The notes beneath the pieces are model-generated. The model had not been told where the DNA came from and did no database searches. It worked only from the letters and a program-made list of their open reading frames with translations. The translations under genes were made by a program, and so were the position numbers. This document shows, piece after piece, positions 1 through 42,719 of a stretch of 64,000 nucleotides of DNA. Location of the stretch: assembly GCA_964413095.1 (NCBI GenBank), contig CAYPRJ010000001.1, forward strand, positions 6,975 through 70,974, read 5' to 3'. Numbering within the stretch: position 1 is the first letter of the stretch; each line of letters starts with the position of its first letter. This stretch comes from Candidatus Woesearchaeota archaeon. Lineage in GTDB: Archaea > Nanobdellota > Nanobdellia > Pacearchaeales > GW2011-AR1.

Positions 1-987
1 CCATGGACTTTACCCCTTTTTATTAAAAATAAAATGATTAATCCCTTGGCTGCAGGATTAATGAGTTTTTTAGTTGATGGTTCTAGAACACTTTTGGTTG
101 CAGGAACAAGAAGTTCTGGGAAAACTTCTTTGCTCGGAAGTTTAATGTTAGAGATAATCCCAAAATACAGAATTATTGTTGTTGAGGATTCTTTAGAGTT
201 GCCTGTTGAATCTCTTAAAGATCTTAATTATGATATTTTAAGAATGAAAGTTCGTTCTGCTTTACTTAAAACTACAACAGAGGTTTCTGCTGAAGATGGG
301 ATTAGGACTAGTTTAAGATTAGGAGATTCTTGTTTAATTGTAGGAGAGGTTAGAAGTGTTGAAGCCAAGGCTCTTTATGAGGCTATGAGGGTTGGAGCTT
401 TGGCAAATGTGGTAGCAGGAACAATTCATGGTGCTTCTCCTTATGGGGTTTTTGACAGAGTTGTAAATGATTTAGAAGTTCCAGCTACAAGTTTTAAAGC
501 AACAGATTTAATTGCTGTTTGCAATCCAGTGAAAACTCCTGATGGATTGCATTCTTACAGACGTGTCATGCAACTTTCTGAAATAAGAAAACATTGGAAA
601 GAAGATCCTATCAGTGAAAATGGATTTGTTGATTTGTTAAAATATAATGTTAAAAAAGATGAGCTTGAAGCTACTGATGATTTAATGAATGGAGATAGTG
701 AGATTATAAAAGATATTGCTTCTAATGTAAAAGGCTGGGCAGGAAACTGGGATGCTGTTTATGATAATATTTTGCTCAGAGCTAAAATAAAAAAAGAACT
801 TGTAGATATTGCAAAAAAAACTGGCAAAGAAAAAATTTTAGAAGCTAATTTTAATTTACTTTCAAATCATATGTTTCATAAAATTTCTGATAAAGTTAGG
901 GAAGAAGTTGGTCTGCCTTTAAGTGAGAGAGTTTTTCCTGAATGGCAAAAATGGTTGAATGAAGAAATTAAAAAAAGAAAATTTTGA
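1..987 (+). CDS. Type IV pilus/archaellum-type secretion ATPase (FlaI/TadA/GspE family), C-terminal part; gene begins upstream of window
   Basis: Frame 1 is open from nt 1. Walker A-like GTRSSGKTSLLGSLM, Asp box/Walker B IVGEVRSVEA and His box GTIHGASP match FlaI/VirB11-family ATPases. The M at nt 34 is internal, not the start. Confidence 0.75.
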   Translation, partial: PWTLPLFIKNKMINPLAAGLMSFLVDGSRTLLVAGTRSSGKTSLLGSLMLEIIPKYRIIVVEDSLELPVESLKDLNYDILRMKVRSALLKTTTEVSAEDGIRTSLRLGDSCLIVGEVRSVEAKALYEAMRVGALANVVAGTIHGASPYGVFDRVVNDLEVPATSFKATDLIAVCNPVKTPDGLHSYRRVMQLSEIRKHWKEDPISENGFVDLLKYNVKKDELEATDDLMNGDSEIIKDIASNVKGWAGNWDAVYDNILLRAKIKKELVDIAKKTGKEKILEANFNLLSNHMFHKISDKVREEVGLPLSERVFPEWQKWLNEEIKKRKF

Positions 988-1930: not shown

Positions 1931-4114
1931 GTGAATATGGCAAAATCTCAGAAGAAGCCAAGTGTTGATGATATTCTTAGAAAGTATGGGGCGAAGATAG
2001 AAGGAAAAATTAAGACTTCTGGTGTAAATCGAAAAGTAAAAACAGATTATAGCAGAGAGTATGTTAAATTTAAAAGTGAGATGGCTCCTGAACTTTCAAA
2101 ATTTGAAAAATGGTGTCATAGTCTTGGAAATATTTTAAAATTAAAAATTTCAGAAAAAGACGAGAAAAAAATTAAAAGACAGATTGAAATTGCACATCTC
2201 GACATAGAGCCATGGCAGGCATTGACTTTAAGTGTTGTTGCTTTTGCAAGTGTTTTTATTTTTGGTTTGTTGGCGTCTGTATTAGTAGCTTTAATTAGAG
2301 GAGGTATTTCTGAATTTCCTTTTTTGTTTTTCTTTTTAATGATTATTGTTTCTTTTTTTTCATTTTATATTGTTAATGGAATTCCTGCAAGGCTTGCTAA
2401 CAAGTGGAGACTTAAAGCTTCTTCACAAATGGTGCCAGCAATTTTGTATATTGTTATTTATATGAGGCACACACCCAATCTTGAAAGAGCAATTTCTTTT
2501 GCTTCTGAGCATTTACAATACCCTCTTGCTTTAGATTTTAAAAGAGTTTTTTATGGTGTTTCTGTTGGAAAATTTTCTACAATTAAAGAAAGTTTAGACA
2601 ACTACTTAGAGACATGGAGAGATTATTCTATTGAATTTATTGAAAGTTTTCATTTGATAGAAAGCAGTTTGTTTGAGCCAAATGAAGAGAGGAGAATTGC
2701 TTCTCTTGAAAAAGCTTTACAGGTTGTACTTGACGGAGTTTATGGTAAGATGCTTAAATTTACCCACAAGGTAAGAAGCCCTTTGACTAATGTTTATATG
2801 CTCGGAGTTGTTTTGCCGACTCTTGGTTTAGCTTTGTTGCCATTGGCTTCTGCAATGCTTGGAGGTTTTTTAAAATGGCATCATGTTCTTATTTTGTTTA
2901 ATCTTATACTTCCTTTTTTGGTTTTTTATCTTACAGATAAAATTATGTTTTTGCGTCCTGGTGGCTATGGTGAAACAGACTTATTAGAAAGAAATCCTCT
3001 GTATTCCAAATATAAAGATAACAGCCATTACACAAAAGCTTTTTTGATTTGTCTTCCTTTTTTGCTTATAGGTTTGTTGCCTTTAATTTTTCAATACACC
3101 CCAATTCCAGAAATTCTTGGTTTGCAAAGTGATTATACTTTTTCTAATTTAGGGTTGGGTCTTTTAGGAGATGAATCTATTTTTGGGTTTATAGAAACTA
3201 CTGAAGGTTTTAAGGGACCTTTTGGTGTTGGAGCTTTAGTTTTTAGTATGTTTATTCCATTAGGAATAGCTTTATTTTTTTCAACAGCTTTTAAGTCTAA
3301 GACAAAAGAATTAATTGTAGAAAGGAAAAAAACAAAGCAATTAGAAAAAGAGTTTAATAATTCTCTTTTTCAGTTAGGAAATAGAATAGGTAATGGGACT
3401 CCTCCTGAACTTGCTTTTGGAAAAGTTGCAGAATCTTCTCGCGGTTTGATAACAGAGAATTTTTTTAACAGAGTAAATTATAATATAAGGCAAATGGGTA
3501 TGAGCGTTGAGAAAGCTATTTTTGATCCAAAAATTGGAGCTATGAGATACTATCCTTCTGCATTAATTCTTACAAGTATGAGAATTCTTATAGAATCAGC
3601 AAAAAAAGGTTTAAAGATTGCTGCTAGGAGTCTTATGAGCATTTCAGAGTATGTAAAAAATATACAAAAAATAACTAGCAGACTTAAAGATTTGCTTGCA
3701 GAAATAGTTTCTGATATGAAAAGTAATATGACTTTTTTAGCTCCTTTACTTTCTGGAGTTGTTGTTGGTTTATCTATTATGATTACTTCTATTTTAGGGA
3801 AATTAAATTTAGCAAGTCTATCAGAAACAGATGTTGGAATTGGAAACTTAGATACAATTTTAAATATTTTTAATTTAGGAAACATGATTCCTCCTTATTA
3901 TTTGCAAATAATAATTGGTGTTTATTTAATTGAAATAGTTTTTATTTTAACAAGAACACTTGTGGCAATTGATTCAGGAGAAGATAAATTAGAAAAAACA
4001 AATAAAATAGGAAAAAATCTTATGAAAGGAATTACTCTTTATTTTATTGTAGCTCTTTTAGCAACTTTAGCTTTGTTTGTTTTAAGTTCTGTGGTTCTTG
4101 GAAATTTAGTTTAA
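1931..4114 (+). CDS. FlaJ/TadC-like polytopic membrane platform protein of type IV pilus machinery
   Basis: 727 aa with many TM helices and large cytoplasmic loops, immediately downstream of the FlaI-like ATPase, which is the canonical gene order. This is a family-level call. Confidence 0.5.
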   Translation: MNMAKSQKKPSVDDILRKYGAKIEGKIKTSGVNRKVKTDYSREYVKFKSEMAPELSKFEKWCHSLGNILKLKISEKDEKKIKRQIEIAHLDIEPWQALTLSVVAFASVFIFGLLASVLVALIRGGISEFPFLFFFLMIIVSFFSFYIVNGIPARLANKWRLKASSQMVPAILYIVIYMRHTPNLERAISFASEHLQYPLALDFKRVFYGVSVGKFSTIKESLDNYLETWRDYSIEFIESFHLIESSLFEPNEERRIASLEKALQVVLDGVYGKMLKFTHKVRSPLTNVYMLGVVLPTLGLALLPLASAMLGGFLKWHHVLILFNLILPFLVFYLTDKIMFLRPGGYGETDLLERNPLYSKYKDNSHYTKAFLICLPFLLIGLLPLIFQYTPIPEILGLQSDYTFSNLGLGLLGDESIFGFIETTEGFKGPFGVGALVFSMFIPLGIALFFSTAFKSKTKELIVERKKTKQLEKEFNNSLFQLGNRIGNGTPPELAFGKVAESSRGLITENFFNRVNYNIRQMGMSVEKAIFDPKIGAMRYYPSALILTSMRILIESAKKGLKIAARSLMSISEYVKNIQKITSRLKDLLAEIVSDMKSNMTFLAPLLSGVVVGLSIMITSILGKLNLASLSETDVGIGNLDTILNIFNLGNMIPPYYLQIIIGVYLIEIVFILTRTLVAIDSGEDKLEKTNKIGKNLMKGITLYFIVALLATLALFVLSSVVLGNLV

Positions 4115-4168: not shown

Positions 4169-5302
4169 ATGAAAGGATATGATAGAGAAGAACAATTAAG
4201 ACAACAAGCATCTTTTTATGGGTTTAGAAAAAACCAGGAAGAAAAAGAAAGTATAAAGAAGCTTGTTAGAAAGTTATCTTTTGCCGGAGGAATAATATTG
4301 TTTTCTATGGGAGCTTGGCAAGCATCTTCGTCTTTTGTTGAAGAATTTAAGGAAAAAGAAAAAGATATCGCTAGACTTCAAAAATCTTATGATAATAAGA
4401 TTGAAGAATTTAAAAATTTAGAAGACAAAAACAAAAACTTAGAAAAAATTATTGAAGAGATTTTACCAAAATTAGAAAACAGGATAGCTAGTATAGAAGA
4501 ATCAGATCCTGGAATTATGTGGGATGCTGAAAATCTTATTAATAAATTAAGAGGGGGATATAATCAAGAGATTGATTTAAGAGAGTTAGAATCTTTGGTG
4601 ACAATTATTCCCAATAATATTACCAGAGCACAGCATACTTTGCTTGAAAGAAAACATGGAATTAATCTTTACAAACCCACTGAATCTTTTATAAAAAATC
4701 ATTTAGCAAATAATGGACATACTTATGTTACAAGTGAGCAAGGACAGAGAACACATGTTAAATTTAATGTAAATGAGTTAGATATTAGAGATATAGGAGG
4801 TAATTGGTTTTATATTGATGGGGAGCTTGGTTCTTGGAAAAAGGAAACTGTCAAAGGAATGAATGCATTTGTAAGGGATATTTTTCATAATGCAATTGAT
4901 TTATTTAATTCTTATGATAAAAGTATTTTTGTGAGGCATGAAGGGGAGATTGTTCTTTTTGAAGATTTTCATTCTGATGGCATTGAAGACCCTTATAATG
5001 ATCCTCTTGGAAGAAGTTGTATTTATGGGTTTGAGGAAGAAGGAAAAAAATATAGAGTTCAACTTTCTCATTTGAATGATGAATTACCTATAAAATTTAA
5101 ACCAGGAGACAAAGTTTATCCAGGAGATATTTTGGGAATTATTGGGAAAACAGGATTTGCTACAGGCCCACACCTTGATGTTAGATATTTTAAAAAAGAA
5201 AATAATGGGTGGAAAGAACTGATTTTATATTCAAATCGCACTTTTAATCCAGGAGAAAATTTTCTTTATGTTGACTGGATAAATAAGGACTGGAGAGAAT
5301 AA
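4169..5302 (+). CDS. M23 (LytM/lysostaphin)-like metallopeptidase with N-terminal TM and coiled-coil
   Basis: C-terminal GDKVYPGDILGIIGKTGFATGPHLDVRYF resembles the M23 signature G.TG.STGPHLHFE. An upstream HNAID gives an HxxxD motif at about 90 aa spacing. The second His of HxH is replaced by Asp. Confidence 0.55.
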   Translation: MKGYDREEQLRQQASFYGFRKNQEEKESIKKLVRKLSFAGGIILFSMGAWQASSSFVEEFKEKEKDIARLQKSYDNKIEEFKNLEDKNKNLEKIIEEILPKLENRIASIEESDPGIMWDAENLINKLRGGYNQEIDLRELESLVTIIPNNITRAQHTLLERKHGINLYKPTESFIKNHLANNGHTYVTSEQGQRTHVKFNVNELDIRDIGGNWFYIDGELGSWKKETVKGMNAFVRDIFHNAIDLFNSYDKSIFVRHEGEIVLFEDFHSDGIEDPYNDPLGRSCIYGFEEEGKKYRVQLSHLNDELPIKFKPGDKVYPGDILGIIGKTGFATGPHLDVRYFKKENNGWKELILYSNRTFNPGENFLYVDWINKDWRE

Positions 5303-5540: not shown

Positions 5541-5699
5541 ATGAGAAAAATAAAAAAAGGTGTTGTTTCAGAATATCTTCCTTGGTTATTAATAGCAATT
5601 GCAGTTCTTGCTATAGTTATGATTACTCTTTTTTTGCTGAAAGATAGGGGATTTTCTTTGATTGATAAAATAAAAGATTTATTTACAGGGGGCATATAA
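5541..5699 (+). CDS. small pilin-like protein (class III signal peptide candidate)
   Basis: MRKIKKG|VVSEYLPWLLIAIAVLAIV: basic N-terminus, then Gly, then a hydrophobic helix. The stop overlaps the next start. Confidence 0.35.
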   Translation: MRKIKKGVVSEYLPWLLIAIAVLAIVMITLFLLKDRGFSLIDKIKDLFTGGI

Positions 5700-5866
5700 T
5701 GGCAAATTTAACAGTTCCTCAGTTAATTAAAATTATTATTGGAATTGCTGTAGTTGTTGTTGTAATTCTTGGTTTATTTTTATTTTTTAAAGAACAGGTA
5801 ATAGATTTTTTTAATAATTTTATAGGAGAAGAACCTCAAAAGTTTTTTCTTAGTTTTTTAAAATGA
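5699..5866 (+). CDS. small membrane protein
   Basis: 55 aa with one TM. Its ATG overlaps the preceding stop (ATAATGG) and its TGA overlaps the next ATG. Confidence 0.3.
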   Translation: MANLTVPQLIKIIIGIAVVVVVILGLFLFFKEQVIDFFNNFIGEEPQKFFLSFLK

Positions 5867-6378
5867 GAAATAAAAAAGGATTTTTATTAGGAGAAGAAAC
5901 CCTGAAAATAATTTTAGCTTTAGTTGCTATTGGTTTTTTAATTTATTTTTTAGTTTCTTTATATCTAGCAAACAGCAAAAGTAAAGATTTGGAACTTGCT
6001 GAAGCATCTTTAGAGCATTTAATTGAAGAAATAAATTCAAAAAATAGTGAAATTGAAATTTATAATCCTGAAGGTTGGTGGATAATTTCTTGGCCTTATG
6101 AAGGGATTATTCCTAATTCTTGTTCTAATGTTGGCTGGGAAAATTGTGTTTGTATTTATAGAGGGGAATCAGGTATAGGCAAGTTTTTTAAAAATTTAGG
6201 AAGCAGAATGGGTTTAAGCAAAGATGAAAAAGAAAGATTAGCAATTATTGTAGATGATGAGGAAAGAGCTCTTTGTCTAGAAAGTGATTTTTCTTTTGAA
6301 ACAAACCCAACAAAAATACAAAATCCTCCTTTAACATTAAACATAGAATATAATGAGGAAATAATAATAACAAGGTAA
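5863..6378 (+). CDS. pilin-like protein
   Basis: MRNKKGF|LLGEETLKIILALVAIGFLIYFLV class III signal-like N-terminus, 171 aa. Confidence 0.4.
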   Translation: MRNKKGFLLGEETLKIILALVAIGFLIYFLVSLYLANSKSKDLELAEASLEHLIEEINSKNSEIEIYNPEGWWIISWPYEGIIPNSCSNVGWENCVCIYRGESGIGKFFKNLGSRMGLSKDEKERLAIIVDDEERALCLESDFSFETNPTKIQNPPLTLNIEYNEEIIITR

Positions 6379-6379
6379 A

Positions 6380-6484
6380 ATGGATTTAGATGCATTAATA
6401 AAATATTTAATATGGATTGTTTTTTTTGGATTAGCTTTGGCTGGGATGTATTTTATGCTTAAAAGATTTGGAGTAGTAGGATGA
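6380..6484 (+). CDS. small membrane peptide
   Basis: 34 aa (MDLDALIKYLIWIVFFGLALAGMYF...). The stop overlaps the ATG of the next gene. Confidence 0.25.
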   Translation: MDLDALIKYLIWIVFFGLALAGMYFMLKRFGVVG

Positions 6485-7257
6485 AAGTTAATTCAGGTAA
6501 AAAAGGTGAAATTTCAACAAGATATTTAATTATGATAATAATTTTAATTGCAAGTTTTGCTATAATTTTGTTTTTTATTTTTAGATTGAATTTACAAGAA
6601 ACAGGTGATAAAGAAATTTGCCATAATTCTGTTGTTTTAAAATCAAAAGGAAAAGGACTTGTGGGAGATTTGGATTGCAAGACAAATTATGTTTGTATTT
6701 CTGGAGGAAAAGATTGTGAGGGAATAAATCCTACTACTACAATTAAGGTTGATCCTAAAAACAAAGAAGAAATTATGAAGGCAATAGCAGAAGAAATGGC
6801 AGATTGCTGGTGGATGTTTGGGGAAGGAGAATTGGATTATTTAGGTTTAGGAGAAGAAGGACTCTCAAAAACAACTTGCGCAATGTGTTCTATTATTAAG
6901 TTTGATGAAAAGATATTAAAAGAAGATTATAAAATAACTTATACAGAATTTTATGAATATCTTAATACAATTAAAAAAGATGAATCTCAGACTTATTTAA
7001 CTTATTTGTATGATGTTTATAATATTAAAGAACTTCAGGAAAACTTTTTCTTAGATAAGGATATTGAGAAAAATTTTATTTTAACAAAAGATAGATATGC
7101 AATTGTAACAGGAGTAAAAAAAGGAGCTACAATTAAGGTTTTTGGAAAAGATATTAATTTGCCTTGGTTTAAGAGAAATTTAATTCCTTCTTATTATATT
7201 AAATCTGAAAGTTTAAGTGAAGAGTTGGGTTGCGATGAGTATGTTACTAAGGCTTAG
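6481..7257 (+). CDS. pilin-like / Cys-containing secreted protein
   Basis: N-terminal KKGE then a hydrophobic helix. 258 aa with multiple Cys pairs in the mature part. Confidence 0.4.
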   Translation: MKVNSGKKGEISTRYLIMIIILIASFAIILFFIFRLNLQETGDKEICHNSVVLKSKGKGLVGDLDCKTNYVCISGGKDCEGINPTTTIKVDPKNKEEIMKAIAEEMADCWWMFGEGELDYLGLGEEGLSKTTCAMCSIIKFDEKILKEDYKITYTEFYEYLNTIKKDESQTYLTYLYDVYNIKELQENFFLDKDIEKNFILTKDRYAIVTGVKKGATIKVFGKDINLPWFKRNLIPSYYIKSESLSEELGCDEYVTKA

Positions 7258-9253
7258 AAAGATACTCTTTAGAACGTTTTGTTAAGTATAGTAGACCATG
7301 GTAAGTATCTATACCTTCTTCTTTAAAACTCTCAATGAATTTTTTATTTAAATTAGGTAACATAAAGATGAAATTTCTTCCCATTCTTTTTCCAAGTTCT
7401 GAAACTTTTCTTATAGCTTCTTCTTCTGGGATGTTTTTCTTTTCATAACTTTCAACTAATTCTTCAATTGGAGAAATGAAATTTCTTTTAATAAATCCAT
7501 TTAATTCTTCTTTACTCATATTATAAAGAGTCCTTTGAAATTTTGCTGCTTCTCTAAAATATTCTCCAGATTTAGAGATGGGTATATCTAAAATTTTGTA
7601 GGGATCTTCATCATATACTTCGTTGAGATAAAATTCTCCTCCTATTCTTTTTTGGTAATTTATTAAAGAATCAAGATAAGCTCTTTCAGTGTTTATATCC
7701 AGTTCTTCATCTAATATAAATATTGGAACAAAACCCTTTGATATAAAGGCCATACCTACATTTCCGTATCCAGGGAAACCGAATGTCTCTTCTTTACCCA
7801 CCTTATTTAGAAAGTCCCACGCATCTGTATTTTCCTTAAACTGCCAAATTTCTAGTTGTAGCATATTTGGATCAGATGCTTTTAAGGATTGAATGTTTTC
7901 TGTGTTATATAAAGCAGCTCCTAGACCTATAAGGTTTAGTTCATCCAATTCCCAATTTTCTTCTCTCATCTTAGCTATTTCTCTTTTATTAAGGATGTAA
8001 GGAAGTGTTCTTCCTTCAATATCTTGGATAAGTGAGATTCCTTCCAACTCCTCTCCTTGCAAGAAATAATCCTCTAATGTTTGAGGTCCTCTTTCGGCAA
8101 GTTCCTTTTCTTGTTGAAAAAGAATTTTTGAGAAATTAACTAGGTTTGCATAATAATCATCTAAATTTTTGCTGAAAACTTTAGAGTTCATTCCAAGATT
8201 TGCTTCTAATCCTCCCAGCATTTTCCAAGATGATTTTTCAGAATTTATTGCTAAAGAACCTTCTATTTCTGCACTTGGTCCAGCAATGCCGTAAACTAAG
8301 AAGTTTAGTCTTGGTTCAACATATGCATTTAAATTAGAAATCTTAGAAAGTTCAGGAGGAGAGAAATTAAAAGAGTTTGAAAAATCACTATCTTTATCCC
8401 ATTTTTTATCTTTATATGAAACTCCAGCACTTATAGAATTTTCTTCTGTTATAGAAGTTTCTATTGGAGAAATACTTCCCTCTAATCCAATATATAATTG
8501 TAATTCTGGTTTTATTATTATTGGCAGAGGAGTTCCTGGGATTACTCCTGCATTAAAAGGGGGGAAATTATATTGAGCGATTTTTATTTCTTTATTTATA
8601 TCTTCGAGGGATTCAGAAGAATTTATTTCTAATTCATATCCAATATCAGATTTATTTCTAAAAGATAATTCTTTTAAGGAGTTGTTTTGAATGTCACAAT
8701 TTATAAAAAATTTTGAATAAAAATTGAAATTTCCGTTTGCAGTTATTTGGTCTTCTGTAGTAGTTTTGTCTCCATCAGCATCATATAAAACAATTTCTTT
8801 GAAATCGTGATTTATATTAAGAGAACCTGCTTCATGGTGTTTTTTAAATGTTCCTTCTTTAGTTTTAAGAATATATTCTCCTGAAGGAGGGGATACTTCT
8901 AATTCAAAAGATGCATTTTTTACAGCCTCTTCTAAAGTGGCATCTTCTATTTGTATTGTCTTTTTATCTTCAGAAACATTATTTACTTTTTTTAAAAGTC
9001 CATAAGGGGTTGAATCGCTAATTCCTGTAGAGACTATATCTCCTGTAGAAAAAGAAACAGGTTCTGAGAAATCTATTCTGTTTTCTCCCACTGATGAAAT
9101 ATTTTTAATATCCTTTTCTGACAAAACAAGAGTATAAGGAGAAAGTTCATTTTTTGGTCCCAATAATGAAGAGATTTCTTTTTGACATCCTGCAAACAAA
9201 ACAGAAGCTCCTAGCAAAGCTCCAGCGATAATATTTCTAAGGTTTTTCTTCAT
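7247..9253 (-). CDS. secreted lipoprotein of unknown function (possible pilus-associated adhesin)
   Basis: N-terminus MKKNLRNIIAGALLGASVLFAGC has a lipobox Cys after a signal peptide. 668 aa, embedded among pilin genes. Confidence 0.5.
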   Translation of the reverse strand: MKKNLRNIIAGALLGASVLFAGCQKEISSLLGPKNELSPYTLVLSEKDIKNISSVGENRIDFSEPVSFSTGDIVSTGISDSTPYGLLKKVNNVSEDKKTIQIEDATLEEAVKNASFELEVSPPSGEYILKTKEGTFKKHHEAGSLNINHDFKEIVLYDADGDKTTTEDQITANGNFNFYSKFFINCDIQNNSLKELSFRNKSDIGYELEINSSESLEDINKEIKIAQYNFPPFNAGVIPGTPLPIIIKPELQLYIGLEGSISPIETSITEENSISAGVSYKDKKWDKDSDFSNSFNFSPPELSKISNLNAYVEPRLNFLVYGIAGPSAEIEGSLAINSEKSSWKMLGGLEANLGMNSKVFSKNLDDYYANLVNFSKILFQQEKELAERGPQTLEDYFLQGEELEGISLIQDIEGRTLPYILNKREIAKMREENWELDELNLIGLGAALYNTENIQSLKASDPNMLQLEIWQFKENTDAWDFLNKVGKEETFGFPGYGNVGMAFISKGFVPIFILDEELDINTERAYLDSLINYQKRIGGEFYLNEVYDEDPYKILDIPISKSGEYFREAAKFQRTLYNMSKEELNGFIKRNFISPIEELVESYEKKNIPEEEAIRKVSELGKRMGRNFIFMLPNLNKKFIESFKEEGIDTYHGLLYLTKRSKEYLSKP

Positions 9254-9348: not shown

Positions 9349-9747
9349 ATGAAGAATAAAAGAGGTGCAAATATTTTAACAGAGAACCTTATTTTTATTA
9401 TTTTGAATTTGGTTTTTATAAGTATTTTAATTATTTTTTTATTTTCTAAGACAGGAAGTGCTGCTGTTTTAGAGGAGAAATATGCTAAGCAAATAGCTTT
9501 GATAATTGATTCCGCAAAACCACAAATGACAATTAAACTTAATATGAAAGATGCTATTGATAAAGCAAAAAAAGAATGGGATGAATCAAAAATAGATGAA
9601 ATAGTGAAGATTAATGGCAATATTGTCTCAGTAAAACTTAGAGAGAAGGGAGGTTATAGTTATTCATTTTTTAATGATATAGAAGCTAATGTATATCTTG
9701 ATACTACAAATAATGAAGAATATATTATTACAGTAAATGAAAAATAA
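9349..9747 (+). CDS. pilin-like protein
   Basis: MKNKRGA|NILTENLIFIILNLVFISILIIFLF: KRG then a hydrophobic stretch typical of archaeal prepilins. 132 aa. Confidence 0.45.
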   Translation: MKNKRGANILTENLIFIILNLVFISILIIFLFSKTGSAAVLEEKYAKQIALIIDSAKPQMTIKLNMKDAIDKAKKEWDESKIDEIVKINGNIVSVKLREKGGYSYSFFNDIEANVYLDTTNNEEYIITVNEK

Positions 9748-10930
9748 AAAGCTAAGTTGGAAATTGAATAAAAAAGGGGACAAAATAATCTCTGTTTATT
9801 GGTTTGTAATTTTGTTTATTGTAGTTGCAGCTGTTGTTTATATGGCCTATCTTTTTTATGGAACTCCTTATGATGCAAGAGCTGTTGAAGCAAGAGTTTT
9901 AAAAAATAAAATTGCAGATTGTTTATCTGAAGGAGGATATTTAAAAGAAAAAGTTTTAACAGAAAATTTCAAGGATAATTTTTTAGAGAAATGCGATTTA
10001 AACTTAAATGTTGAGGATGCTTATGGTTGGGAAGATGACCAGTATTATATTAAGGTGAGTTTTTATGAATTTGATAATGATTTTTCAGGTAATTTAGGAA
10101 ATTTAATTGAAGAGATAGAAGTTGGAAATATTAATTTAGTTTCTTATGCCATTCAAGAGCAAAAAGAAAAAAGCAAAAAAGATGAGATGGATACAATTGT
10201 GATTCATTATACAGAAGGTTTTTCTGCCAGAGGAGCAATTGAAACAATAAAAGATAATAATTTAAGTGTGCATTATATGATTGATAGAGATGGAACAATT
10301 ATTTCAAAAGAAAATGCTGATAACTTTTTGGAAGGAGGAGAAAAAGCCTTTGTTGGAGAAGATGAGAGAGGAGCTCATGCTGGATGTTATGATATCAGGA
10401 AAGGAGAAGAAAGAAGAAAATGCACTGAAGAAGATTTTGAAAATTTAAATTCAATTAATAATAGTTGTGATTTATTTGATTTAAACGAGGAAGAAAAATG
10501 TTGTATTCCTAGTTTTAACACGCATTCTATTGGAATAGAGCTTGTAAATCTTGGTTCTAAGTGTAATGAAGAAACTGTTTTAACAGAAAATTATTGCGAG
10601 GATAATGAAGTAGAAATTTGTGGAAAAAAATGGGAGAATTTCACTGCAGAACAAATTAGTTCTTTAATGAATTTAGCTTCAGAAATTGCTTCAAGAAATA
10701 AGATTCCTATTGACAGGGAGCACATAATTGGACATGACGAGATTGCTTTTGGGTTTAAATCAGATCCTGGTCCTGCATTTCCCTGGAAAAGCTTTATAGA
10801 AAATTTGAAAATTAGAGAAACACTAACTCCTAATTTAGAAAGAAGTTTTTATGTTTTAGATAAAAATACTAATGAAAAATATGTAATTAAAATTTTGACA
10901 ATTGTAAGAAAAACAGAAAAAAATGCTTAA
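9737..10930 (+). CDS. N-acetylmuramoyl-L-alanine amidase (amidase_2 / AmpD-PGRP family) with N-terminal membrane anchor and Cys-rich insertion
   Basis: IVIHYTEG...SVHYMIDRDGTI, GAHAG, NTHSIGIELVN, and HIIGHDEIAFGFKSDPGPAFPW match the amidase_2 Zn-amidase blocks of T7 lysozyme and AmpD (GH..i..K.DPGP.F). Confidence 0.8.
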   Translation: MKNKKLSWKLNKKGDKIISVYWFVILFIVVAAVVYMAYLFYGTPYDARAVEARVLKNKIADCLSEGGYLKEKVLTENFKDNFLEKCDLNLNVEDAYGWEDDQYYIKVSFYEFDNDFSGNLGNLIEEIEVGNINLVSYAIQEQKEKSKKDEMDTIVIHYTEGFSARGAIETIKDNNLSVHYMIDRDGTIISKENADNFLEGGEKAFVGEDERGAHAGCYDIRKGEERRKCTEEDFENLNSINNSCDLFDLNEEEKCCIPSFNTHSIGIELVNLGSKCNEETVLTENYCEDNEVEICGKKWENFTAEQISSLMNLASEIASRNKIPIDREHIIGHDEIAFGFKSDPGPAFPWKSFIENLKIRETLTPNLERSFYVLDKNTNEKYVIKILTIVRKTEKNA

Positions 10931-11447
10931 TAAGATTTTAATAAGAAAAAAAGCTCAGATTGGGGAAACTATAACATGGGTAGTTGCAACTATCATTATA
11001 ATTGTTATTCTTGCATTTTCAATTTTTGTTACATCATCATTAACAAAAGGAAAAGGAATTTCAGGAGCAGGGAATGGTAAAGAAATTGGAGTGATTAATG
11101 AAAAAGATTTAATTGCTGCAAAATCTTTATCTAGCTATTTATTGACAAAAGATGCTTCTGGAGAAATTGTTTTTGAGCAGATAAAAACCGAAGGAAATTT
11201 AAATGATTTTAATGGAGAATTAGCTGAGGCAATTTTTGAGGGGCTTTATAGTAAAGATTACTCTCATGTTATTTGGTTTGGAGTGGTTAAAAATGTAGGA
11301 TTATTTAATAATGATTATTTTGGTAGTAGGGGAAAGACAGTACAGCGAAAAGGAGGAGATACAGTTCCTGGATATTATTCTTCTGTTGGTGAAAAATTAA
11401 TGTTAGATGAAAATAAATGGTTGGAATTAATCTTAATGGATGATTAA
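10923..11447 (+). CDS. pilin-like protein
   Basis: N-terminal basic stretch then TITWVVATIIIIVILAFSIFV helix. 174 aa. The start overlaps the upstream stop. Confidence 0.35.
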   Translation: MLNKILIRKKAQIGETITWVVATIIIIVILAFSIFVTSSLTKGKGISGAGNGKEIGVINEKDLIAAKSLSSYLLTKDASGEIVFEQIKTEGNLNDFNGELAEAIFEGLYSKDYSHVIWFGVVKNVGLFNNDYFGSRGKTVQRKGGDTVPGYYSSVGEKLMLDENKWLELILMDD

Positions 11448-11793
11448 AATGAGAAAAATCACAAAAAATAAGAAAGCAGATATTCCTGTGACAATTTTAG
11501 TAATTGGTATTGTTGCAGTTTGTGTTTTGGCGATTATAAGTTTTGTAATCTCTGGAAGTTCAAATCAAACAGGAGTCGAAGCTTTTGAAGAAATAGATTC
11601 TTATGTTGAAAAATTTTATTTTTATTTAAATGCTGGTTTTTCAGAAGAGGAAGCTTTGGAAAAAGTTTCTGCAGAAAAAATTTCTGGAAAGAATTTGGAA
11701 ATGAAAATTGAGGAAAATAATTTAATTATAAAAAAATATTATAAAGAAAGAGATGTTGTTTTGGATATTAAATATGCAAAGCCCTTGAAATAA
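11440..11793 (+). CDS. pilin-like protein
   Basis: N-terminal KNKKADIPVTILVIGIVAVCVLAIISFV. 117 aa. The start overlaps the upstream stop. Confidence 0.35.
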   Translation: MIKMRKITKNKKADIPVTILVIGIVAVCVLAIISFVISGSSNQTGVEAFEEIDSYVEKFYFYLNAGFSEEEALEKVSAEKISGKNLEMKIEENNLIIKKYYKERDVVLDIKYAKPLK

Positions 11794-11831: not shown

Positions 11832-12323
11832 ATGTTGAATAAAAGAGGTCAGGGTTTAAGCACTAATGCTATAATATTAATTATTTTGGGTGTTGTTGTT
11901 TTAGTTATTTTAATAATAGGATTTACTCTTGGATGGGGAACCTTGAAAGACAGAATAACTGGTGGAGGAAATAATGTTGATGATGTTGTTCAGGAATGTA
12001 GTTCAGCATGCGCTACTTTAAGCAGATATAGTTATTGTTCTGCAAAAAAGGAATTAAAAACAGAAGATGAAACATTAACTAATGTTACTTGTTATTATTT
12101 AGCTGAAAAGCAACCACAATATGGAATTGAAAAATGTTCTGCTTTGAGTTGTGATTATGTGTTTGTAGATGTAGATGTAAATGAAGGAGAGACAATTGAA
12201 GACAAGTGTAAAGATAATGAAGAAAATGCAATTCAGGCATTAAAAGGAGAGACAATTCAGGCCTTAATAGATAATGAATTAATTAGTCATGATTGTCCTG
12301 CACAATCTGAAACTGCTGAATAA
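11832..12323 (+). CDS. archaeal type IV pilin (class III signal peptide)
   Basis: MLNKRGQ|GLSTNAIILIILGVVVLVILIIGF has the canonical KRGQ prepilin-peptidase site. The mature part is Cys-rich. Confidence 0.55.
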   Translation: MLNKRGQGLSTNAIILIILGVVVLVILIIGFTLGWGTLKDRITGGGNNVDDVVQECSSACATLSRYSYCSAKKELKTEDETLTNVTCYYLAEKQPQYGIEKCSALSCDYVFVDVDVNEGETIEDKCKDNEENAIQALKGETIQALIDNELISHDCPAQSETAE

Positions 12324-12673: not shown

Positions 12674-13522
12674 ATGGAAGAGGTGATTTTTTTAATAATT
12701 TTAGCATTAATCTGGATTATTTTTGCTGTTGTTCAGGATTTAAGAAATAGAGAAATTGCTAATTGGTTAAATTTTTCTTTAATAATTTTTGCCTTGGGGT
12801 TTAGGTTTTTTTATTCTCTGTTTTCTGAAACAGTGAGTTTTTCTTTTTTTTATCAAGGACTTTTAGGTCTGGGAATTTTTTTTGCATTAGGAAACTTGCT
12901 TTATTATAGTAGAATGTTTGCAGGAGGAGATGCAAAACTTATGATTTCTTTAGGGGCTGTGCTTCCTTTTTATAATGTTTTTTTTGACAATCTAAAAAAC
13001 TTTGTATTATTCTTTTTAATCTTTTTAGTTGTTGGTGCTTGTTATGGTTTTATTTCAAGTATTATTGTAACAGTAAAAAACTTTCAACCATTTAAAAAAG
13101 AATTTTCTTCACAAATAAAATCAAGAAAAAAAATATTATATGTTTTGATGGTTTTTGGTTTGGTATTAATGATTTTAGGATTTTTTGAAAATCTTTTTTT
13201 TCTTTTTGGTATTTTTTCTTTTATTTTCCCCTGGTTCTATATCTATGCAAAATCTGTTGATGAAGCATGTATGATTAAAAAAATCGAAGTGAAAAAATTA
13301 AGAGAAGGAGATTGGCTTTATAATAATGTAAAAATTGGGAAGAAGATAATTAAGGCAAAATGGGATGGTTTATCAAAAAAGGAAATCAAGGAGATAAGGA
13401 AGAAAAAGAAAAACGTGAAAATAAGAGAAGGAATTGCTTTTAGTCCTGTTTTTTTAATTAGTTTTATAATTTTGGCTTTATTTTATTTTTTGAAAATAGA
13501 TTTATGGAATTTTATAATTTAA
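12674..13522 (+). CDS. prepilin/preflagellin peptidase (A24 family, PibD/FlaK-like) with Lys-rich C-terminal extension
   Basis: Polytopic membrane protein with VQDLRNREIANW (first Asp motif) and FAGGDAKLMISLGAV (the GxGD-type second catalytic Asp motif of A24 peptidases). Confidence 0.65.
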   Translation: MEEVIFLIILALIWIIFAVVQDLRNREIANWLNFSLIIFALGFRFFYSLFSETVSFSFFYQGLLGLGIFFALGNLLYYSRMFAGGDAKLMISLGAVLPFYNVFFDNLKNFVLFFLIFLVVGACYGFISSIIVTVKNFQPFKKEFSSQIKSRKKILYVLMVFGLVLMILGFFENLFFLFGIFSFIFPWFYIYAKSVDEACMIKKIEVKKLREGDWLYNNVKIGKKIIKAKWDGLSKKEIKEIRKKKKNVKIREGIAFSPVFLISFIILALFYFLKIDLWNFII

Positions 13523-16158: not shown

Positions 16159-19100
16159 ATGGCTACTAAAAAAGATGTTGAAGAAATTAAGAATGCTGTT
16201 TCTGGAGAGGAGAAGGAGGAAAAAGAGCCTCAGCTTACAGATTTGCCGGGAATTGGTCCTGCAGTAGCAACAAAGCTTGAATCTGCAGGAATATATGATT
16301 TAATGTCTTTAGCTGTTATGGGTCCTGCTGAGTTAGGGAATATTGCTGGTGTTAGTGCTGGTGTTGCAAGAAAAGCTATTCAAGCAGCGCGTAGTATGTT
16401 GAAACTAGGTTTTACAGATGGCTTTGAATATGCACAGAGAAGAGCTAATGTTAATTATATTACTACTGGAAGTAAAAATATTGATAATCTTCTTGGGGGA
16501 AAAGGTGTAGAAAGCAGAGCAGTTACAGAAGCATTTGGAGCTTATGGTTCTGGAAAGTGTGTAAGTAAAGACACTGCGGTTAGTTATTTTAATGATACAA
16601 GGATGCATGTTGAGCAGATACAGGAAACTTACAATAAATACAACAAAAATAATGAGTTTAAGTTTGAGGAAGGATTTGCTGTCCCTGTTTCAAGCGTAAA
16701 GGTTCTTGCTTGGAATAAGGGAAAATTAAAAGTTGCAAGAGCTTCACATTTATATAAGGAAAAAGTAAAGCAGTTATTCTTAGTAAAAACAAAAAGAGGC
16801 AGGGTTTTAAAAGTTACAGGAAAACACAGGATTTTAAGTTTTGATAATGGGGTTAAATGGAAAAAAACATCGGATTTAAAAAAAGGAGACTTAATTGCTT
16901 CTCCAAGAAAATTAGATTTGGTTACAGAAAATATTTATGATGAAGATGATGCTTATTTTTTGGGGTTGTTTGTAGCAGAAGGAACTTCAAATCCTTTTTC
17001 AATTTCAACTGGCTCTGAAAAAATAAAGAATTGGGTTTGCAATTACATAAAAAATAAATTTAGATATGTTCCTCTGGTGAGATATAATCAAAGAGGTGAA
17101 AAACCAGTTTATACAATTTTATCAAAAAATAAAACCCGCGGAATAATGGCTGGACTTGATAAATGCAACTCCTCTAATAAGTTTATTCCTGAAGCTATTT
17201 TTCTTTCAGATGAAAATGTTGTTTCTTCATTTTTAGGAGGATATCTTGATGGAGATGGAGAGGTTTCTAAAACAGATGTCTCTGCGACTACAAAAAGCTC
17301 TAAACTGGCTACACAATTAAGTTATTTGTTTTTAAGATTGGGAATTAGCGTAAGTATTAAAGAAAGAAAAAATGAAAAATATGGAAACTATAAGGTAGTT
17401 AGGGTAAGTGGTGAAGATAGAAAAAGGCTAAAAAATGTTTCTTTTAAGATAAAAAGATTTTCTCCTGATATAAGAAATAGTGCTTATGGCTATCCTCGAA
17501 AAATAATTTCTTTTCTTCACCAACTTTATAAAGAGTGTCTTGGAGGTAATAGGGGAAGATTAAGAAAAGAAGTAGGCAAAAGAAGTTTGGACAGAACTGT
17601 TTATTCTAATTTAATAAACCAATATCAGGGAAAGGTGGTAAATACAAAAACATTTAGAAGAATAGAAGATGTTTTTGAAAAACAGAAAGACAGATTTGTT
17701 CATATTTTAAAGAAACTCGAAGATGAAGAATTTAGCCAGGAAATTTTAAATGAAATCTATCCTAGTTTGCCTTTTGCTTTTAGTTCATTGGCAGAAGATA
17801 TGGGCCTGAAGAAAAAAAGCATAAGAAATTATTATCATAGAAATATTCCTAATTCAAAAAAAGAGATTTTAAAGAATCTTATTTTTAATGAATTAAAAAC
17901 CAGGGTTGATATGATTTACCTGGCTTTGGAAATTATTTCAGAAATAAAGATGTTTAATTGGGATGTTGTGGAGAGTGTTGAAGTTATTGATTATGATGAT
18001 TATGTTTATGACTTTGTTGTTCCAGAGGGGCATTCTTTTATTGGGGGCAATCTTCCTACAATGATGCATAATACTCAGCTTGGTTTAACTCTTGCTGTTA
18101 ATGTTCAATTGCCTGTTGAAAAAGGTGGTGCAAATGGAAAGTGTGTTTTTATTGATACAGAAGGAACTTTCAGACCAGCGCGTATAAAACAAATTGCTGA
18201 AATTTTAGGAGCCAATCAAGAAAAAGTTTTGAAAAATATTTTAGTTGCAAGAGCTTTTAATTCAGATCATCAAATTTTGCTTTTAGAAAAAATCTCTGAA
18301 ATGGTTAAACAAGGAGAACCAATTAAATTATTAATTGTTGATTCTTTAACTGCACATTTTAGAGCAGAGTTTTCAGGAAGAGGACAATTAGCAGACAGGC
18401 AGCAAAAATTGAATAAATATCTTCATAATTTAATGAGGCTTGCTGAACAGCACAATCTTGCAGTTTATGTTACAAATCAAGTAATGGCAAATCCTGCGCA
18501 GATGTTTGGAGATCCTACAACTGCAATTGGGGGGAATATTGTGGGACACGCTTGTTTAACAGGAGATAGTTTAATTCAATTAGCTGATGGAAGTATAAGG
18601 GAAATTAAAAATATTAGTAAGAATAATGTTATTTCTGGAAATTTAAATAAATTAAGCTTTGAACAAGCAGGCTCTGAAAAAACTTTTATCAATCCAGACA
18701 TCAAAAAAATTTACAATATTAAAACAACAAATCAAATAAAGTGTTCTCCTCTCCATAGATTTTTTTCAATAGAAAATTTTTCTATTATTGAAAAAGAAGC
18801 CAAAGATTTGAGAGAGGGGGATTTTATTGCTCATGCAGGAAGAATTGAGATAGGGGGAGAAGAGCAGGAGTTGCCGACTCTAAATTTAAGAAGAATTGGA
18901 AAAATATCTAAAGATGAGGGAAAATTAATTTCAGAGGAGCTTGGAAAAGGAAATATTTCAAGAAATGAAATATGCAAGAAAGTGGGGATAACTTCAAGGC
19001 AGTTTAGAAGGGTTTTAAATCAGTCATATCCTACAAATATTAAAGTTTTTGATGCTTTAAAAAAGCATTTTGCAAATAATCTTCAGTTACAGGTTGTTCC

Positions 19101-40584: not shown

Positions 40585-40720
40585 AGCCTGTGGAGGGATT
40601 CTAACCCCCGGCCTACTGCTGGCTTTCTGAACATGTAGTTGGCTCAGATACAAGGCAGTTGAGCATATCTTAACCTTTTAGAGTCACAGATATTCCGCTC
40701 TAACACTGAGCTACACAGGC
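40585..40720 (-). tRNA. tRNA-Thr(TGT) with two introns (~36 nt after the D-arm, ~28 nt at 37/38)
   Basis: Reverse complement: acceptor GCCTGTG/CACAGGC, D-arm GCTC..GAGC, anticodon stem ACTGC/GCAGT with loop CTTGTA|intron|A, T-arm GGGGG-TTAGAAT-CCCTC. Confidence 0.6.
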
Positions 40721-42610: not shown

Positions 42611-42719
42611 TGGTCCTGCGCGGAATTGAACCGCGGTTTTATCCATTTTGTGAACAGCTTACAGATTTAAGTGAACTGAACTCGTCAAGGACATGTCTTA
42701 GCCACTGGACTACAGGACC
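42611..42719 (-). tRNA. tRNA-Val(GAC) with ~37-nt anticodon-loop intron
   Basis: Reverse complement: acceptor GGTCCTG/CAGGACC, D-arm GTC-AGTGGCTAA-GAC, anticodon stem TGTCC/GGATA with loop TTGACG, T-arm CGCGG-TTCAATT-CCGCG. Confidence 0.6.

What the first reader, a model, noticed from the sequence alone, without database searches (positions are those of the whole stretch)
9737..10930. Membrane-anchored amidase_2 (AmpD/T7-lysozyme fold) with Cys-rich insertion, encoded by an archaeon
All amidase_2 blocks are recognisable: IVIHYTEG, SVHYMIDRDGTI, GAHAG, HSIGIELVN and HIIGHDEIAFGFKSDPGPAFPW. The Zn-ligand positions (His, His, Asp/Cys) are preserved. An ~80-aa insertion rich in Cys (CTEED...CDLFD...CCIPSF...CNEE...CEDNEVEIC) sits between blocks, and there is an N-terminal TM anchor. 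It lies in the middle of the pilin operon and its ATG overlaps the preceding stop, so it is probably co-expressed with pilins.
Basis: partly seen in the sequence, partly recalled or inferred. Interest (0 to 1): 0.7.

Follow-up and report, generated by a model that had tools for sequence, protein, structure and literature searches.

The report
Cell-wall amidase nested in archaeal pilus-operon protein
A tiny DPANN archaeon (Nanoarchaeia) has a bacterial-cell-wall-cutting enzyme spliced into a loop of a conserved membrane-anchored protein of its pilus-like operon; relatives carry no enzyme or a different wall-cutting enzyme in the same protein, which suggests the machine is used against bacterial walls.

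Summary

The new point is that the amidase is itself an insertion. Residues 1-145 and 367-397 form one conserved ~170-aa scaffold: basic leader, a "KKG", a TM helix, then a helix and a four-strand sheet. That scaffold is a widespread Woese-/Pacearchaeota protein (1,255 representatives at 50% identity). It fills a fixed slot in a syntenic type-IV-filament operon (ATPase, polytopic membrane protein, about nine prepilin-like small proteins, A24 peptidase). At this slot, relatives carry no insert, an SLT lytic transglycosylase in another loop, or Amidase_2. In some lineages the same amidase is fused to the next gene's product.

The "Cys-rich insertion" is really two expanded loops. All 65 family members have an even Cys count in the domain, consistent with disulfides and an extracytoplasmic location.

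Most likely function: a surface-displayed murein amidase coupled to the filament machine and acting on bacterial peptidoglycan. Incorporation into the filament is unproven, because no pilin HMM or fold match was found. Murein hydrolases in DPANN are already reported; this architecture and operon coupling appear not to be.

The parts
34..987 (+). C-terminal part of the type-IV-filament assembly ATPase (T2SSE/VirB11 type), cut by the start of the window
   Evidence: Pfam T2SSE E=1.8e-13. Full-length 760-762-aa orthologues sit at the head of the same operon in L001, L003 and L005. 75-84% identical across loci.
1931..4114 (+). 727-aa polytopic membrane protein, putative filament platform protein
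   Evidence: About 9 hydrophobic segments. No Pfam hit. Always follows the ATPase; 65-72% identical in 11 loci. The platform role is inferred from position only.
4169..5302 (+). M23-like (LytM-type) protein, an addition specific to this window's locus
   Evidence: Pfam Peptidase_M23 28.2 bits, just under the cutoff of 28.7. HNAID motif present, but HxH reads 'PHLD'. Absent from the other loci. Only one homologue found.
5541..5699 (+). 52-aa prepilin-like protein (MRKIKKG|VVSEY + hydrophobic helix), candidate short filament subunit
   Evidence: Sequence. Conserved at 45-74% identity in all loci. Only weak N_methyl/Flp-like signals.
5699..5866 (+). 55-aa hydrophobic protein, start and stop overlapping its neighbours
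   Evidence: Read from the DNA. Weak Flp1_like/TrbC hits. The L004 counterpart hits Flp1_like at E=3.6e-5.
5863..6378 (+). 171-aa prepilin-like protein (KKG|FLLGE: G, then E at +5)
   Evidence: Syntenic in all loci.
6481..7257 (+). 258-aa prepilin-like protein with 8 Cys (KKG|EISTR)
   Evidence: Syntenic in all loci.
9349..9747 (+). 132-aa prepilin-like protein (KRG|ANILTE) immediately upstream; its stop overlaps the amidase ATG
   Evidence: 49-67% identical in all loci.
9737..10171 (+). N-terminal half of the scaffold (aa 1-145): Lys-rich leader, 'KKG-DK', TM helix (aa ~17-41; 9785-9859), helix 48-63, strands 103-112 and 120-130; C62 and C86
   Evidence: Aligns collinearly with scaffold-only proteins P0140, P0079, P0125 and P0135. 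The scaffold profile matches P0001 aa 10-147. AF2 secondary structure.
10172..10834 (+). Inserted Amidase_2 module (aa ~146-366). Zn ligands H157, H333, D343; catalytic E268, K341; Y180. Cys-rich loop A at 10385-10516 and loop B at 10556-10630.
10835..10930 (+). C-terminal part of the scaffold (aa 367-397: ERSFYVLD...YVIKILTIVRKTEKNA), the last two strands of the sheet
   Evidence: Aligns with the C-terminus of scaffold-only and SLT-bearing proteins. Strands 368-375 and 381-390 in the model.
10923..11447 (+). 174-aa prepilin-like protein (KKAQIG|ETITW). In some lineages this protein carries the amidase at its C-terminus.
   Evidence: N-terminal match to P0072, E=4e-8. L006 arrangement.
11440..11793 (+). 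117-aa prepilin-like protein (KNKKA|DIPVT)
11832..12323 (+). 163-aa prepilin-like protein with 8 Cys (KRGQ|GLSTN)
12674..13522 (+). A24-family prepilin/preflagellin peptidase
   Evidence: Pfam Peptidase_A24 E=1.3e-12. NCBIfam FlaK_Arch partial hit. Conserved at the operon's end in all loci with enough flank.

Best explanation
The gene encodes an extracytoplasmic, disulfide-stabilised, zinc-dependent N-acetylmuramoyl-L-alanine amidase module. In sequence it is closest to the periplasmic or lipoprotein amidases AmpDh2, AmiD and AmpDh3. During evolution the module was inserted into a surface loop, between strands 2 and 3, of a conserved ~170-aa protein that is anchored at its N-terminus. That protein fills a fixed slot in the type-IV-filament (TFF) operon of Woese-/Pacearchaeota-type Nanoarchaeia.

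Proposed mechanism: the Lys-rich leader stays in the cytoplasm. The hydrophobic helix holds the protein in the membrane, or in the filament core if the co-encoded A24 peptidase cleaves after the KKG. The scaffold presents the amidase outside the cell. There the amidase cleaves the MurNAc-L-Ala bond of bacterial murein that the cell or its filament touches, which would serve attachment, wall breaching or feeding.

Shown here: the fold, the catalytic residues, the nesting, the operon slot and the cargo swapping. Inferred: the outside location (from topology and Cys parity), murein as the substrate, and physical coupling to the filament.
For: - Catalytic set: H157, E268, H333 and D343 invariant in 86/86 sequences, K341 in 82/86, Y180 in 84/86. 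The H333/K341/D343 spacing equals that of the aligned GH..K.D block in AmpDh2, AmiD and AmpDh3.
- Nesting: the window protein's aa 1-~145 and ~367-397 align collinearly with 165-200-aa proteins that lack any enzyme. In those proteins the amidase position is a ~16-aa Cys-bounded loop. The scaffold profile hits P0001 in two stretches. AF2 secondary-structure elements of the full protein and the bare scaffold correspond.
- Fixed operon slot: identical gene order in every locus with enough flank, namely ATPase, polytopic protein, 3-4 small proteins, slot, 3 small proteins, A24 peptidase. This holds whether the slot protein carries Amidase_2 (L001, L003, L007-L015, L087), SLT (L005) or nothing (L004). 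Start/stop overlaps are conserved.
- Cargo: every identifiable insert in this scaffold is a murein hydrolase, either Amidase_2 or SLT, and the two sit in different loops. The same amidase clade is also fused to the slot+1 protein.
- Extracytoplasmic location: one N-terminal TM behind a Lys-rich leader. The Cys count in the domain is even in 65/65 members (4, 6, 8 or 10), and 61/65 have exactly two scaffold Cys.
- Literature: Woese-/Pacearchaeota are already reported to encode extracellular murein lytic transglycosylases and are proposed to interact with bacteria (PMC8204110, PMC9723730). Archaeal peptidoglycan hydrolases (PGHs) can kill bacteria (PMC12352652).
Against: - No biochemical data exist, and the substrate is inferred by homology only.
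- The sequence after the KKG is charged (A/G-D/E-K), and a strict FlaFind-type cleavage motif fits only 3/263 family members. The protein may therefore be an uncleaved bitopic membrane protein and not a filament subunit.
- Hosts or targets of these archaea are unknown. All cultivated DPANN have archaeal hosts (abstract of PMC11291902, listed).
- I could not scan whole genomes for murein synthesis genes, so action on the archaeon's own wall is not formally excluded.
Confidence: 0.6

Rival explanations
1. A true modular minor pilin. The A24 peptidase cleaves after KKG, the hydrophobic helix enters the filament core, and the amidase is displayed on the filament, most likely at its tip, as a contact-dependent device for cutting bacterial walls. 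This is a sharper version of the best explanation, not a contradiction of it.
For: Same operon as the A24 peptidase and about 8 other proteins with basic-G/A-hydrophobic N-termini, several with a G/A followed by E at +4 to +6. [KR][GA] lies just upstream of the hydrophobic helix in 73% of 263 family members. A domain inserted into the sheet of a carrier module parallels GspK and the bacterial 'modular pilins', which are predicted to sit at the tip (PMC8179133). The same amidase was also captured by the neighbouring small protein.
Against: No pilin HMM or fold match. The strict cleavage motif fits only 3/263. A nearly invariant D/E-K follows the Gly, which is atypical. No filament has been observed for these organisms.
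Confidence: 0.3
2. A self-directed 'space-making' hydrolase, analogous to VirB1 or FlgJ, which opens the archaeon's own wall polymer so the filament machine can assemble.
For: Bacterial trans-envelope machines commonly have dedicated SLT or amidase partners (established knowledge). Here both SLT and amidase variants occur in a machine operon.
Against: Many orthologous operons have a cargo-free slot protein (most of the 1,255 representatives are 160-185 aa), so a hydrolase is not needed for assembly. Murein is normally absent from archaea, and the murein hydrolases of Woese-/Pacearchaeota have been read as directed at bacteria (PMC8204110). Organisms with different cargo states are about equally close to the window's organism: the polytopic protein is 71-72% identical in the SLT locus L005 and the amidase loci L003 and L015. 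That pattern fits accessory, swappable cargo.
Confidence: 0.05
3. A membrane-tethered scavenging enzyme that strips peptides from free peptidoglycan fragments or necromass for nutrition. The operon position would reflect co-regulation only, with no physical link to the filament.
For: These archaea have minimal biosynthesis, and peptidoglycan from dead bacteria has been proposed as an amino-acid source for Pacearchaeota (PMC11537232). The fold search does not support a pilin.
Against: The enzyme is not a free-standing gene. It is spliced into a conserved machine component, twice independently with different enzymes, and a third time onto the neighbouring component. That is hard to explain by co-regulation alone.
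Confidence: 0.2
4. A catalytically inert peptidoglycan-binding adhesin (PGRP-like) used only to stick to bacteria.
Against: All three Zn ligands and the catalytic Glu are invariant, and the Lys is kept in 82/86. Non-catalytic PGRPs characteristically lose a Zn ligand (established knowledge).
Confidence: 0.05
5. A bacterial or phage gene wrongly placed in an archaeal assembly (contamination, prophage endolysin).
For: Two homologous contigs are labelled Omnitrophota and Patescibacteria. Endolysins share the fold.
Against: Both contigs carry the same archaeal operon, and L087 also carries aEF-1beta, RPA and RadA, so they are mis-binned. In about 13 independent assemblies the gene lies at the same chromosomal position next to archaeal housekeeping genes. 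No phage genes are nearby.
Confidence: 0.01

Closest known systems
AmpDh2 / AmpDh3 (Pseudomonas aeruginosa) and AmiD (E. coli): periplasmic or outer-membrane-lipoprotein Amidase_2 enzymes
   Different: The archaeal protein has two Cys-rich expanded loops. It lacks the C-terminal domain of AmpDh2/AmiD, is nested inside another domain, is anchored by an N-terminal TM helix and not a lipid, and is encoded by an organism not known to make murein.
T7 lysozyme / AmpD
   Different: Both are cytoplasmic. The third ligand is Asp here, as in AmpD, not Cys as in T7 lysozyme (established knowledge). The NCBIfam AmpD equivalog model scores only 50 bits against a cutoff of 143.
Bacterial modular pilins and GspK (Raynaud et al. 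2021, PMC8179133)
   Same: A functional module is grafted onto a small N-terminally anchored carrier encoded in a TFF operon. In GspK the extra domain is inserted into the carrier's beta-sheet, as it is here.
   Different: The carrier here is not demonstrably a pilin. The organism is an archaeon. The module is a murein hydrolase; neither 'hydrolase' nor 'peptidoglycan' occurs in that paper's main text.
Sulfolobus bindosome (sugar-binding proteins with class III signal peptides assembled by the Bas system; PMC3047682)
   Same: An archaeal precedent for non-pilin functional proteins that use prepilin-like N-termini and a TFF-related assembly system for surface display (abstract).
   Different: The cargo there is solute-binding proteins for ABC transporters, fused at the end and not nested. 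The lineage and operon are different.
Large extracellular SLT/GH23 proteins of Woese-/Pacearchaeota (Castelle 2021, PMC8204110; Vigneron 2022, PMC9723730) and archaeal PGHs (Strock 2025, PMC12352652)
   Same: Same organisms and the same inferred target, bacterial murein. Extracellular.
   Different: Those are giant (up to 3,000 aa) free-standing proteins or catalytic-plus-wall-binding modular PGHs with Sec/Tat signals. This is a ~400-aa protein with no recognised binding domain, a prepilin-like N-terminus and a fixed slot in the filament operon, so it lies outside the Strock screen criteria.
VirB1 / FlgJ-type machine-associated murein hydrolases
   Same: A murein hydrolase (SLT or amidase) genetically embedded in a trans-envelope machine operon.
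   Different: Those open the producer's own sacculus. Here many orthologous operons lack the enzyme, and the producer is not known to have murein.

Membership tests
Amidase_2 (PF01510) zinc N-acetylmuramoyl-L-alanine amidase / PGRP fold | Profile HMM match above the curated cutoff | tested here: met
   76.4 bits against a cutoff of 26, near full-length profile coverage.
Amidase_2 (PF01510) zinc N-acetylmuramoyl-L-alanine amidase / PGRP fold | Three-dimensional fold | tested here: met
Amidase_2 (PF01510) zinc N-acetylmuramoyl-L-alanine amidase / PGRP fold | Zn ligands His-His-Asp/Cys | tested here: met
   H157, H333 and D343 invariant in 86/86 sequences and aligned to the conserved H / GH / D columns of AmpDh2, AmiD and AmpDh3. 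The residue numbering of ligands in those structures is from memory.
Amidase_2 (PF01510) zinc N-acetylmuramoyl-L-alanine amidase / PGRP fold | Catalytic Glu and Lys | tested here: met
   E268 in 86/86, K341 in 82/86.
Amidase_2 (PF01510) zinc N-acetylmuramoyl-L-alanine amidase / PGRP fold | Hydrolysis of the MurNAc-L-Ala amide bond | not testable with these tools
   Needs an enzyme assay.
AmpD (cytoplasmic 1,6-anhydro-MurNAc-L-Ala amidase, NCBIfam NF008758 equivalog) | Equivalog model score above cutoff; cytoplasmic location | tested here: not met
   50.1 bits against a cutoff of 143, partial match only. The N-terminal TM and even Cys counts point outside the cell.
Type IV pilin / class III signal-peptide protein | Encoded with a TFF ATPase, a platform protein and an A24 prepilin peptidase | tested here: met
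   Conserved operon.
Type IV pilin / class III signal-peptide protein | Short basic leader ending in G/A, followed by ~20 hydrophobic residues | tested here: inconclusive
   The consensus is KNKKG-(A/G)-(D/E)-K-IISVYWF..., and [KR][GA] is present in 192/263. The strict [KRDE][GA][ALIFQMVED][ILMVTAS] pattern fits only 3/263.
Type IV pilin / class III signal-peptide protein | Match to curated pilin or archaellin N-terminal models | tested here: not met
   No pilin family among the Pfam or NCBIfam hits of 48 scaffold proteins.
Type IV pilin / class III signal-peptide protein | Pilin fold of the globular part | tested here: not met
Type IV pilin / class III signal-peptide protein | Cleavage by the prepilin peptidase and incorporation into a filament | not testable with these tools
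   Needs proteomics or cryo-EM.
Modular PGH as defined by Strock et al. 2025 (catalytic domain plus cell-wall-binding domain) | Presence of a recognised peptidoglycan-binding domain | tested here: not met
   Amidase_2 is the only Pfam family detected.
Phage endolysin | Phage or prophage genomic context | tested here: not met
   Fixed chromosomal position next to housekeeping genes in about 13 assemblies.

The most novel reading that the evidence does not exclude
The conserved filament machine of Woese-/Pacearchaeota is a contact-dependent tool for breaching cell walls. One of its subunits is a swappable carrier that presents a murein amidase or a lytic transglycosylase on or at the filament. 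On this reading, cargo-bearing lineages are episymbionts or predators of bacteria and not of archaea.
Probability: 0.3. Interest if true: 0.8.

Novelty: new variant of a known kind. Interest (0 to 1): 0.6.

Why it matters
Whether the very abundant, uncultured Woese-/Pacearchaeota live on bacteria is an open question. All cultivated DPANN have archaeal hosts. Earlier hints came from giant free-standing SLT proteins. Here a murein-specific enzyme is built into a core component of the cell's only obvious surface machine, and related genomes swap it for a second murein-specific enzyme or for nothing. That gives three things: a concrete marker (the cargo state of one orthologous gene) for predicting which lineages touch bacterial walls; a small protein of ~350 soluble residues that can be expressed and assayed; and, as far as I could find, an archaeal counterpart to bacterial 'modular pilins', with an enzyme as the module. 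It also shows that screens for archaeal peptidoglycan hydrolases that require a wall-binding domain and Sec/Tat signals miss a whole family.

Tried and rejected
- Pilin HMMs: none matched in Pfam or NCBIfam.
- Donor lineage: the NJ tree of the amidase domain (110 columns, 50 bootstraps) was too weak. The loop-B-lacking member P0057 was pulled towards Firmicutes, and no bacterial sister group was resolved. A first attempt timed out.
- Disulfide pairing from the model: coordinates are not exposed, so only Cys parity and column occupancy could be used.
- M23-like neighbour as a recurrent partner: rejected. It is absent from all other loci and has a single homologue.
- Bacterial origin of the 'Omnitrophota' and 'Patescibacteria' homologues: rejected, because both contigs carry the archaeal operon.
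- Organism names via cluster look-up: none were returned.
- Literature: two archaeal TFF censuses (PMC4858521; bioRxiv 10.64898/2026.04.22.720090) do not mention amidase or peptidoglycan.
Full report
**1. The observation**

The ORF is at 9737..10930 on the + strand and is 397 aa long.
- Pfam Amidase_2 (PF01510) matches at E=3.3e-21 and 76.4 bits, against a cutoff of 26. The match covers aa 150-346 and profile positions 4-131 of 131.
- The NCBIfam AmpD equivalog model matches only partially, at 50 bits against a cutoff of 143.
- The ATG overlaps the upstream ORF, whose stop is at 9745-9747, by 11 nt. The ORF's own end overlaps the next start (10923) by 8 nt.
- An in-frame TTG at 9764 would give the N-terminus MNKKGDKII, as in many homologues. 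Either start keeps the genes tightly packed.
- The window is archaeal. Four of six tRNAs are 109-138 nt long, meaning they contain introns (ARAGORN finds only the two without introns). RadA, aEF-1beta and an RPA-like protein lie just downstream. GC content is about 28%.

**2. The amidase domain**

An AlphaFold2 model built on 86 aligned sequences has mean pLDDT 88.5.
- A family profile matches AmpDh2 at E=5e-37 over the whole domain, AmiD at 4e-27, AmpDh3 at 9e-24, AmpD at 1.5e-21 and T7 lysozyme at only 1e-4.
- The aligned motifs are iviHYt, SiHYiI, AxHAG, NxxSIGIELVN and IiGHxxiaxxrKxDPGPxFPW.
- Across 86 sequences, H157, E268, H333 and D343 are invariant. K341 is kept in 82 and Y180 in 84.

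**3. The "Cys-rich insertion"**

Compared with AmpDh2, there are two expanded loops on either side of the catalytic-Glu strand, not one 80-aa insert:
- Loop A, aa 217-260: 44 residues against about 10.
- Loop B, aa 274-298: 25 residues against about 10.

C217, C229, C255 and C256 are each present in 62 of 65 family members. C276 is present in 53 and C287 in 49. None of these positions is Cys in the bacterial relatives.

Every one of the 65 family members has an even number of Cys in the domain: 4, 6, 8 or 10. In addition, 61 of 65 have exactly two Cys in the flanking scaffold. Such parity is what paired disulfides would give. Together with a single N-terminal TM segment behind a Lys-rich leader, it argues that the protein folds outside the cytoplasm. 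I could not read model coordinates, so specific Cys pairs are not assigned.

**4. The amidase is itself an insertion**

About 78 homologues cover about 97% of the protein at 37-56% identity. Three outliers were informative:
- P0079 (221 aa) has the N-terminal and C-terminal regions but no enzyme.
- P0080 and P0081 have the same ends around an SLT-type domain (Pfam SLT at 45 bits for P0080).

Searching with P0079 found more than 190 clusters of 165-200-aa proteins, labelled hypothetical in Woesearchaeota, Pacearchaeota, Nanoarchaeota and archaeon GW2011_AR19. An exhaustive profile search found 1,255 representatives at 50% identity. Most are 160-185 aa. About 20 of the top 150 are long and match in two stretches.

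An explicit alignment shows the following:
- Window aa 1-~145 align collinearly with the bare scaffold. This part runs leader, KKG-DK, TM, "PYDxR", "ADCL", "EC.LNF", "QYY", "GN.NL".
- Window aa ~367-397 ("RSFYVLD...YVIKIL..VRKTEKN") align with the bare scaffold's C-terminus.
- The amidase replaces a ~16-aa Cys-bounded loop of the bare scaffold.
- The SLT domain sits in a different loop, after the second helix. SLT-bearing proteins keep the Cys-bounded loop.

The AF2 secondary structures agree between the two forms. The full protein has H12-41, H48-63, E103-112, E120-130, then the amidase, then E368-375 and E381-390. The bare scaffold has H6-36, H43-58, E100-108, E120-128, E150-159 and E165-174.

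All identifiable cargos among the long members are Amidase_2 or SLT. Four remain unassigned.

**5. The operon**

The gene order is: T2SSE ATPase, a ~725-aa polytopic protein, two ~50-aa proteins, proteins of ~170, ~250 and ~135 aa, the SLOT protein, proteins of ~170, ~120 and ~110-160 aa, the A24 peptidase, then (on the reverse strand) HIT and aEF-1beta, then RPA.
- This order is kept in every locus with enough flank.
- The slot holds the amidase form in the window, L001/L002, L003, L007-L015 and L087. It holds the bare form in L004 and the SLT form in L005.
- In L006, a bare slot protein is followed by a slot+1 protein with the amidase at its C-terminus. Those fused amidase domains fall among the nested ones in a rough tree.
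- Organisms with different cargo states are about equally related to the window's. The polytopic protein is 71% identical in L005 (SLT), 72% in L003 and L015 (amidase) and 65% in L001 (amidase). That points to repeated swapping.
- Nine window proteins in the block, including the amidase, begin with a basic leader, then G/A, then about 22 hydrophobic residues.
- Record titles of the nine species-representative genomes with the nested form name Nanoarchaeia, Nanoarchaeota, Pacearchaeota or Woesearchaeota. The contigs labelled "Omnitrophota" and "Patescibacteria" carry the same archaeal operon and are mis-binned.

**6. Is the scaffold a pilin?**

In favour: the operon context and the N-terminal layout. 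Against:
- No pilin model matches in Pfam or NCBIfam.
- Foldseek finds nothing below E=0.07.
- The consensus KNKKG-(A/G)-(D/E)-K-IISVYWF fits a strict FlaFind-type pattern in only 3 of 263 proteins, although [KR][GA] is present in 73%.

I therefore do not file the scaffold as a pilin. I describe it as a prepilin-like, N-terminally anchored component of the filament operon. Processing and incorporation into a filament remain open.

**7. Mechanism and rivals**

- **Best supported (0.6):** a surface-displayed, active murein amidase that is structurally part of a filament-machine component and acts on bacterial peptidoglycan.
- **Sharper version, display on the filament tip like a modular pilin (about 0.3):** GspK is a precedent for a domain inserted into the carrier's sheet (PMC8179133). 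The Sulfolobus bindosome is an archaeal precedent for functional proteins with class III signal peptides (PMC3047682).
- **Self-wall remodelling (unlikely):** most orthologous operons have no cargo, and murein is normally absent from archaea (PMC8204110).
- **Pure scavenging:** possible (PMC11537232), but it does not explain why the enzyme was spliced into machine components three separate ways.
- **Inert adhesin:** disfavoured by the intact catalytic set.
- **Contamination or prophage:** refuted by synteny.

**8. What is known**

Murein hydrolases in these archaea have been reported:
- Giant SLT/GH23 proteins (PMC8204110, PMC9723730).
- Diverse modular peptidoglycan hydrolases (PGHs) in Nanoarchaeota (PMC12352652).

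The Strock screen required a wall-binding domain and scored only Sec/Tat signals, so it would miss this family. Two censuses of archaeal type IV filament systems mention neither amidase nor peptidoglycan. Public records already name the protein "N-acetylmuramoyl-L-alanine amidase", so the domain call itself is not new. The nested architecture, the fixed operon slot and the cargo swapping appear to be undescribed in the literature I could search.

**9. Verdict**

The finding is a new variant of a known kind. Interest is 0.6: no new enzyme chemistry, but a clear and testable link between the DPANN surface machine and bacterial cell walls.

Noticed in passing
window 4169-5302 (+): M23/LytM-like protein sitting between the polytopic-protein gene and the small-gene block. 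Pfam scores 28.2 bits against a cutoff of 28.7. The HNAID motif is present, but the HxH motif reads 'PHLD'. The N-terminal half has a TM segment and looks coiled-coil-like. It is absent from all related loci, and only one homologue exists among 5.8 billion clusters. It may be a second wall-directed protein in the same locus.
   Followed up: partly
window 7247-9253 (-): 668-aa ORF with a lipobox-like N-terminus (…LFAGC) and no Pfam hit. It lies on the opposite strand in the middle of the + strand operon. Only a partial similarity (29% over ~150 aa) is seen at the same place in L003.
   Followed up: partly
window 16159-20166 (+): RadA is 1335 aa long because of two intein/LAGLIDADG homing-endonuclease insertions. 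Orthologues in L001, L003, L005 and L087 are intein-free (324-343 aa).
   Followed up: partly
window 22367-24700 (+): A second ORF with intein-splicing and LAGLIDADG domains. The host protein was not identified.
   Followed up: no
window 45363-51533 (+): A 2056-aa ORF with no Pfam match at E<=0.01. It may be one of the giant surface proteins typical of these archaea.
   Followed up: no
window 40585-40720, 42611-42719, 51721-51858 (-) and 55912-56035 (+): Four tRNA genes of 109-138 nt (intron-containing) are found by Rfam but missed by ARAGORN, which reports only the two intron-less tRNAs.
   Followed up: no
L012 (DATJPO010000041.1, 'Omnitrophota') and L087 (DATJQE010000025.1, 'Patescibacteria'): Both contigs carry the Nanoarchaeia filament operon, and L087 also carries aEF-1beta, RPA and RadA. 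The bacterial labels are binning errors in public MAGs.
   Followed up: yes
L017 2553-10382; L027 7365-11378; L019 6909-8516: Other archaeal Amidase_2 proteins have the same HAGC…C loops in very different architectures. L017 is a 2610-aa Woesearchaeota protein that also has an M15-like 'HAYGSAIDIN' motif. L027 is a 1338-aa protein with a prepilin-like N-terminus, the amidase and an SLT-like region. L019 is a 536-aa M23-like-plus-amidase protein in a Methanosarcinales-labelled MAG.
   Followed up: partly
window 6481-7257 and 11832-12323 (+): Two other prepilin-like operon proteins each contain 8 Cys, which suggests disulfide-rich extracellular domains across the whole set.
   Followed up: no
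window 5541-5866 (+): Two ~50-aa hydrophobic proteins with overlapping stop and start codons (TAATG, ATGA) head the small-gene block. The L004 counterpart of the second one hits Flp1_like at E=3.6e-5, so these may be very short Flp-type filament subunits.
   Followed up: partly
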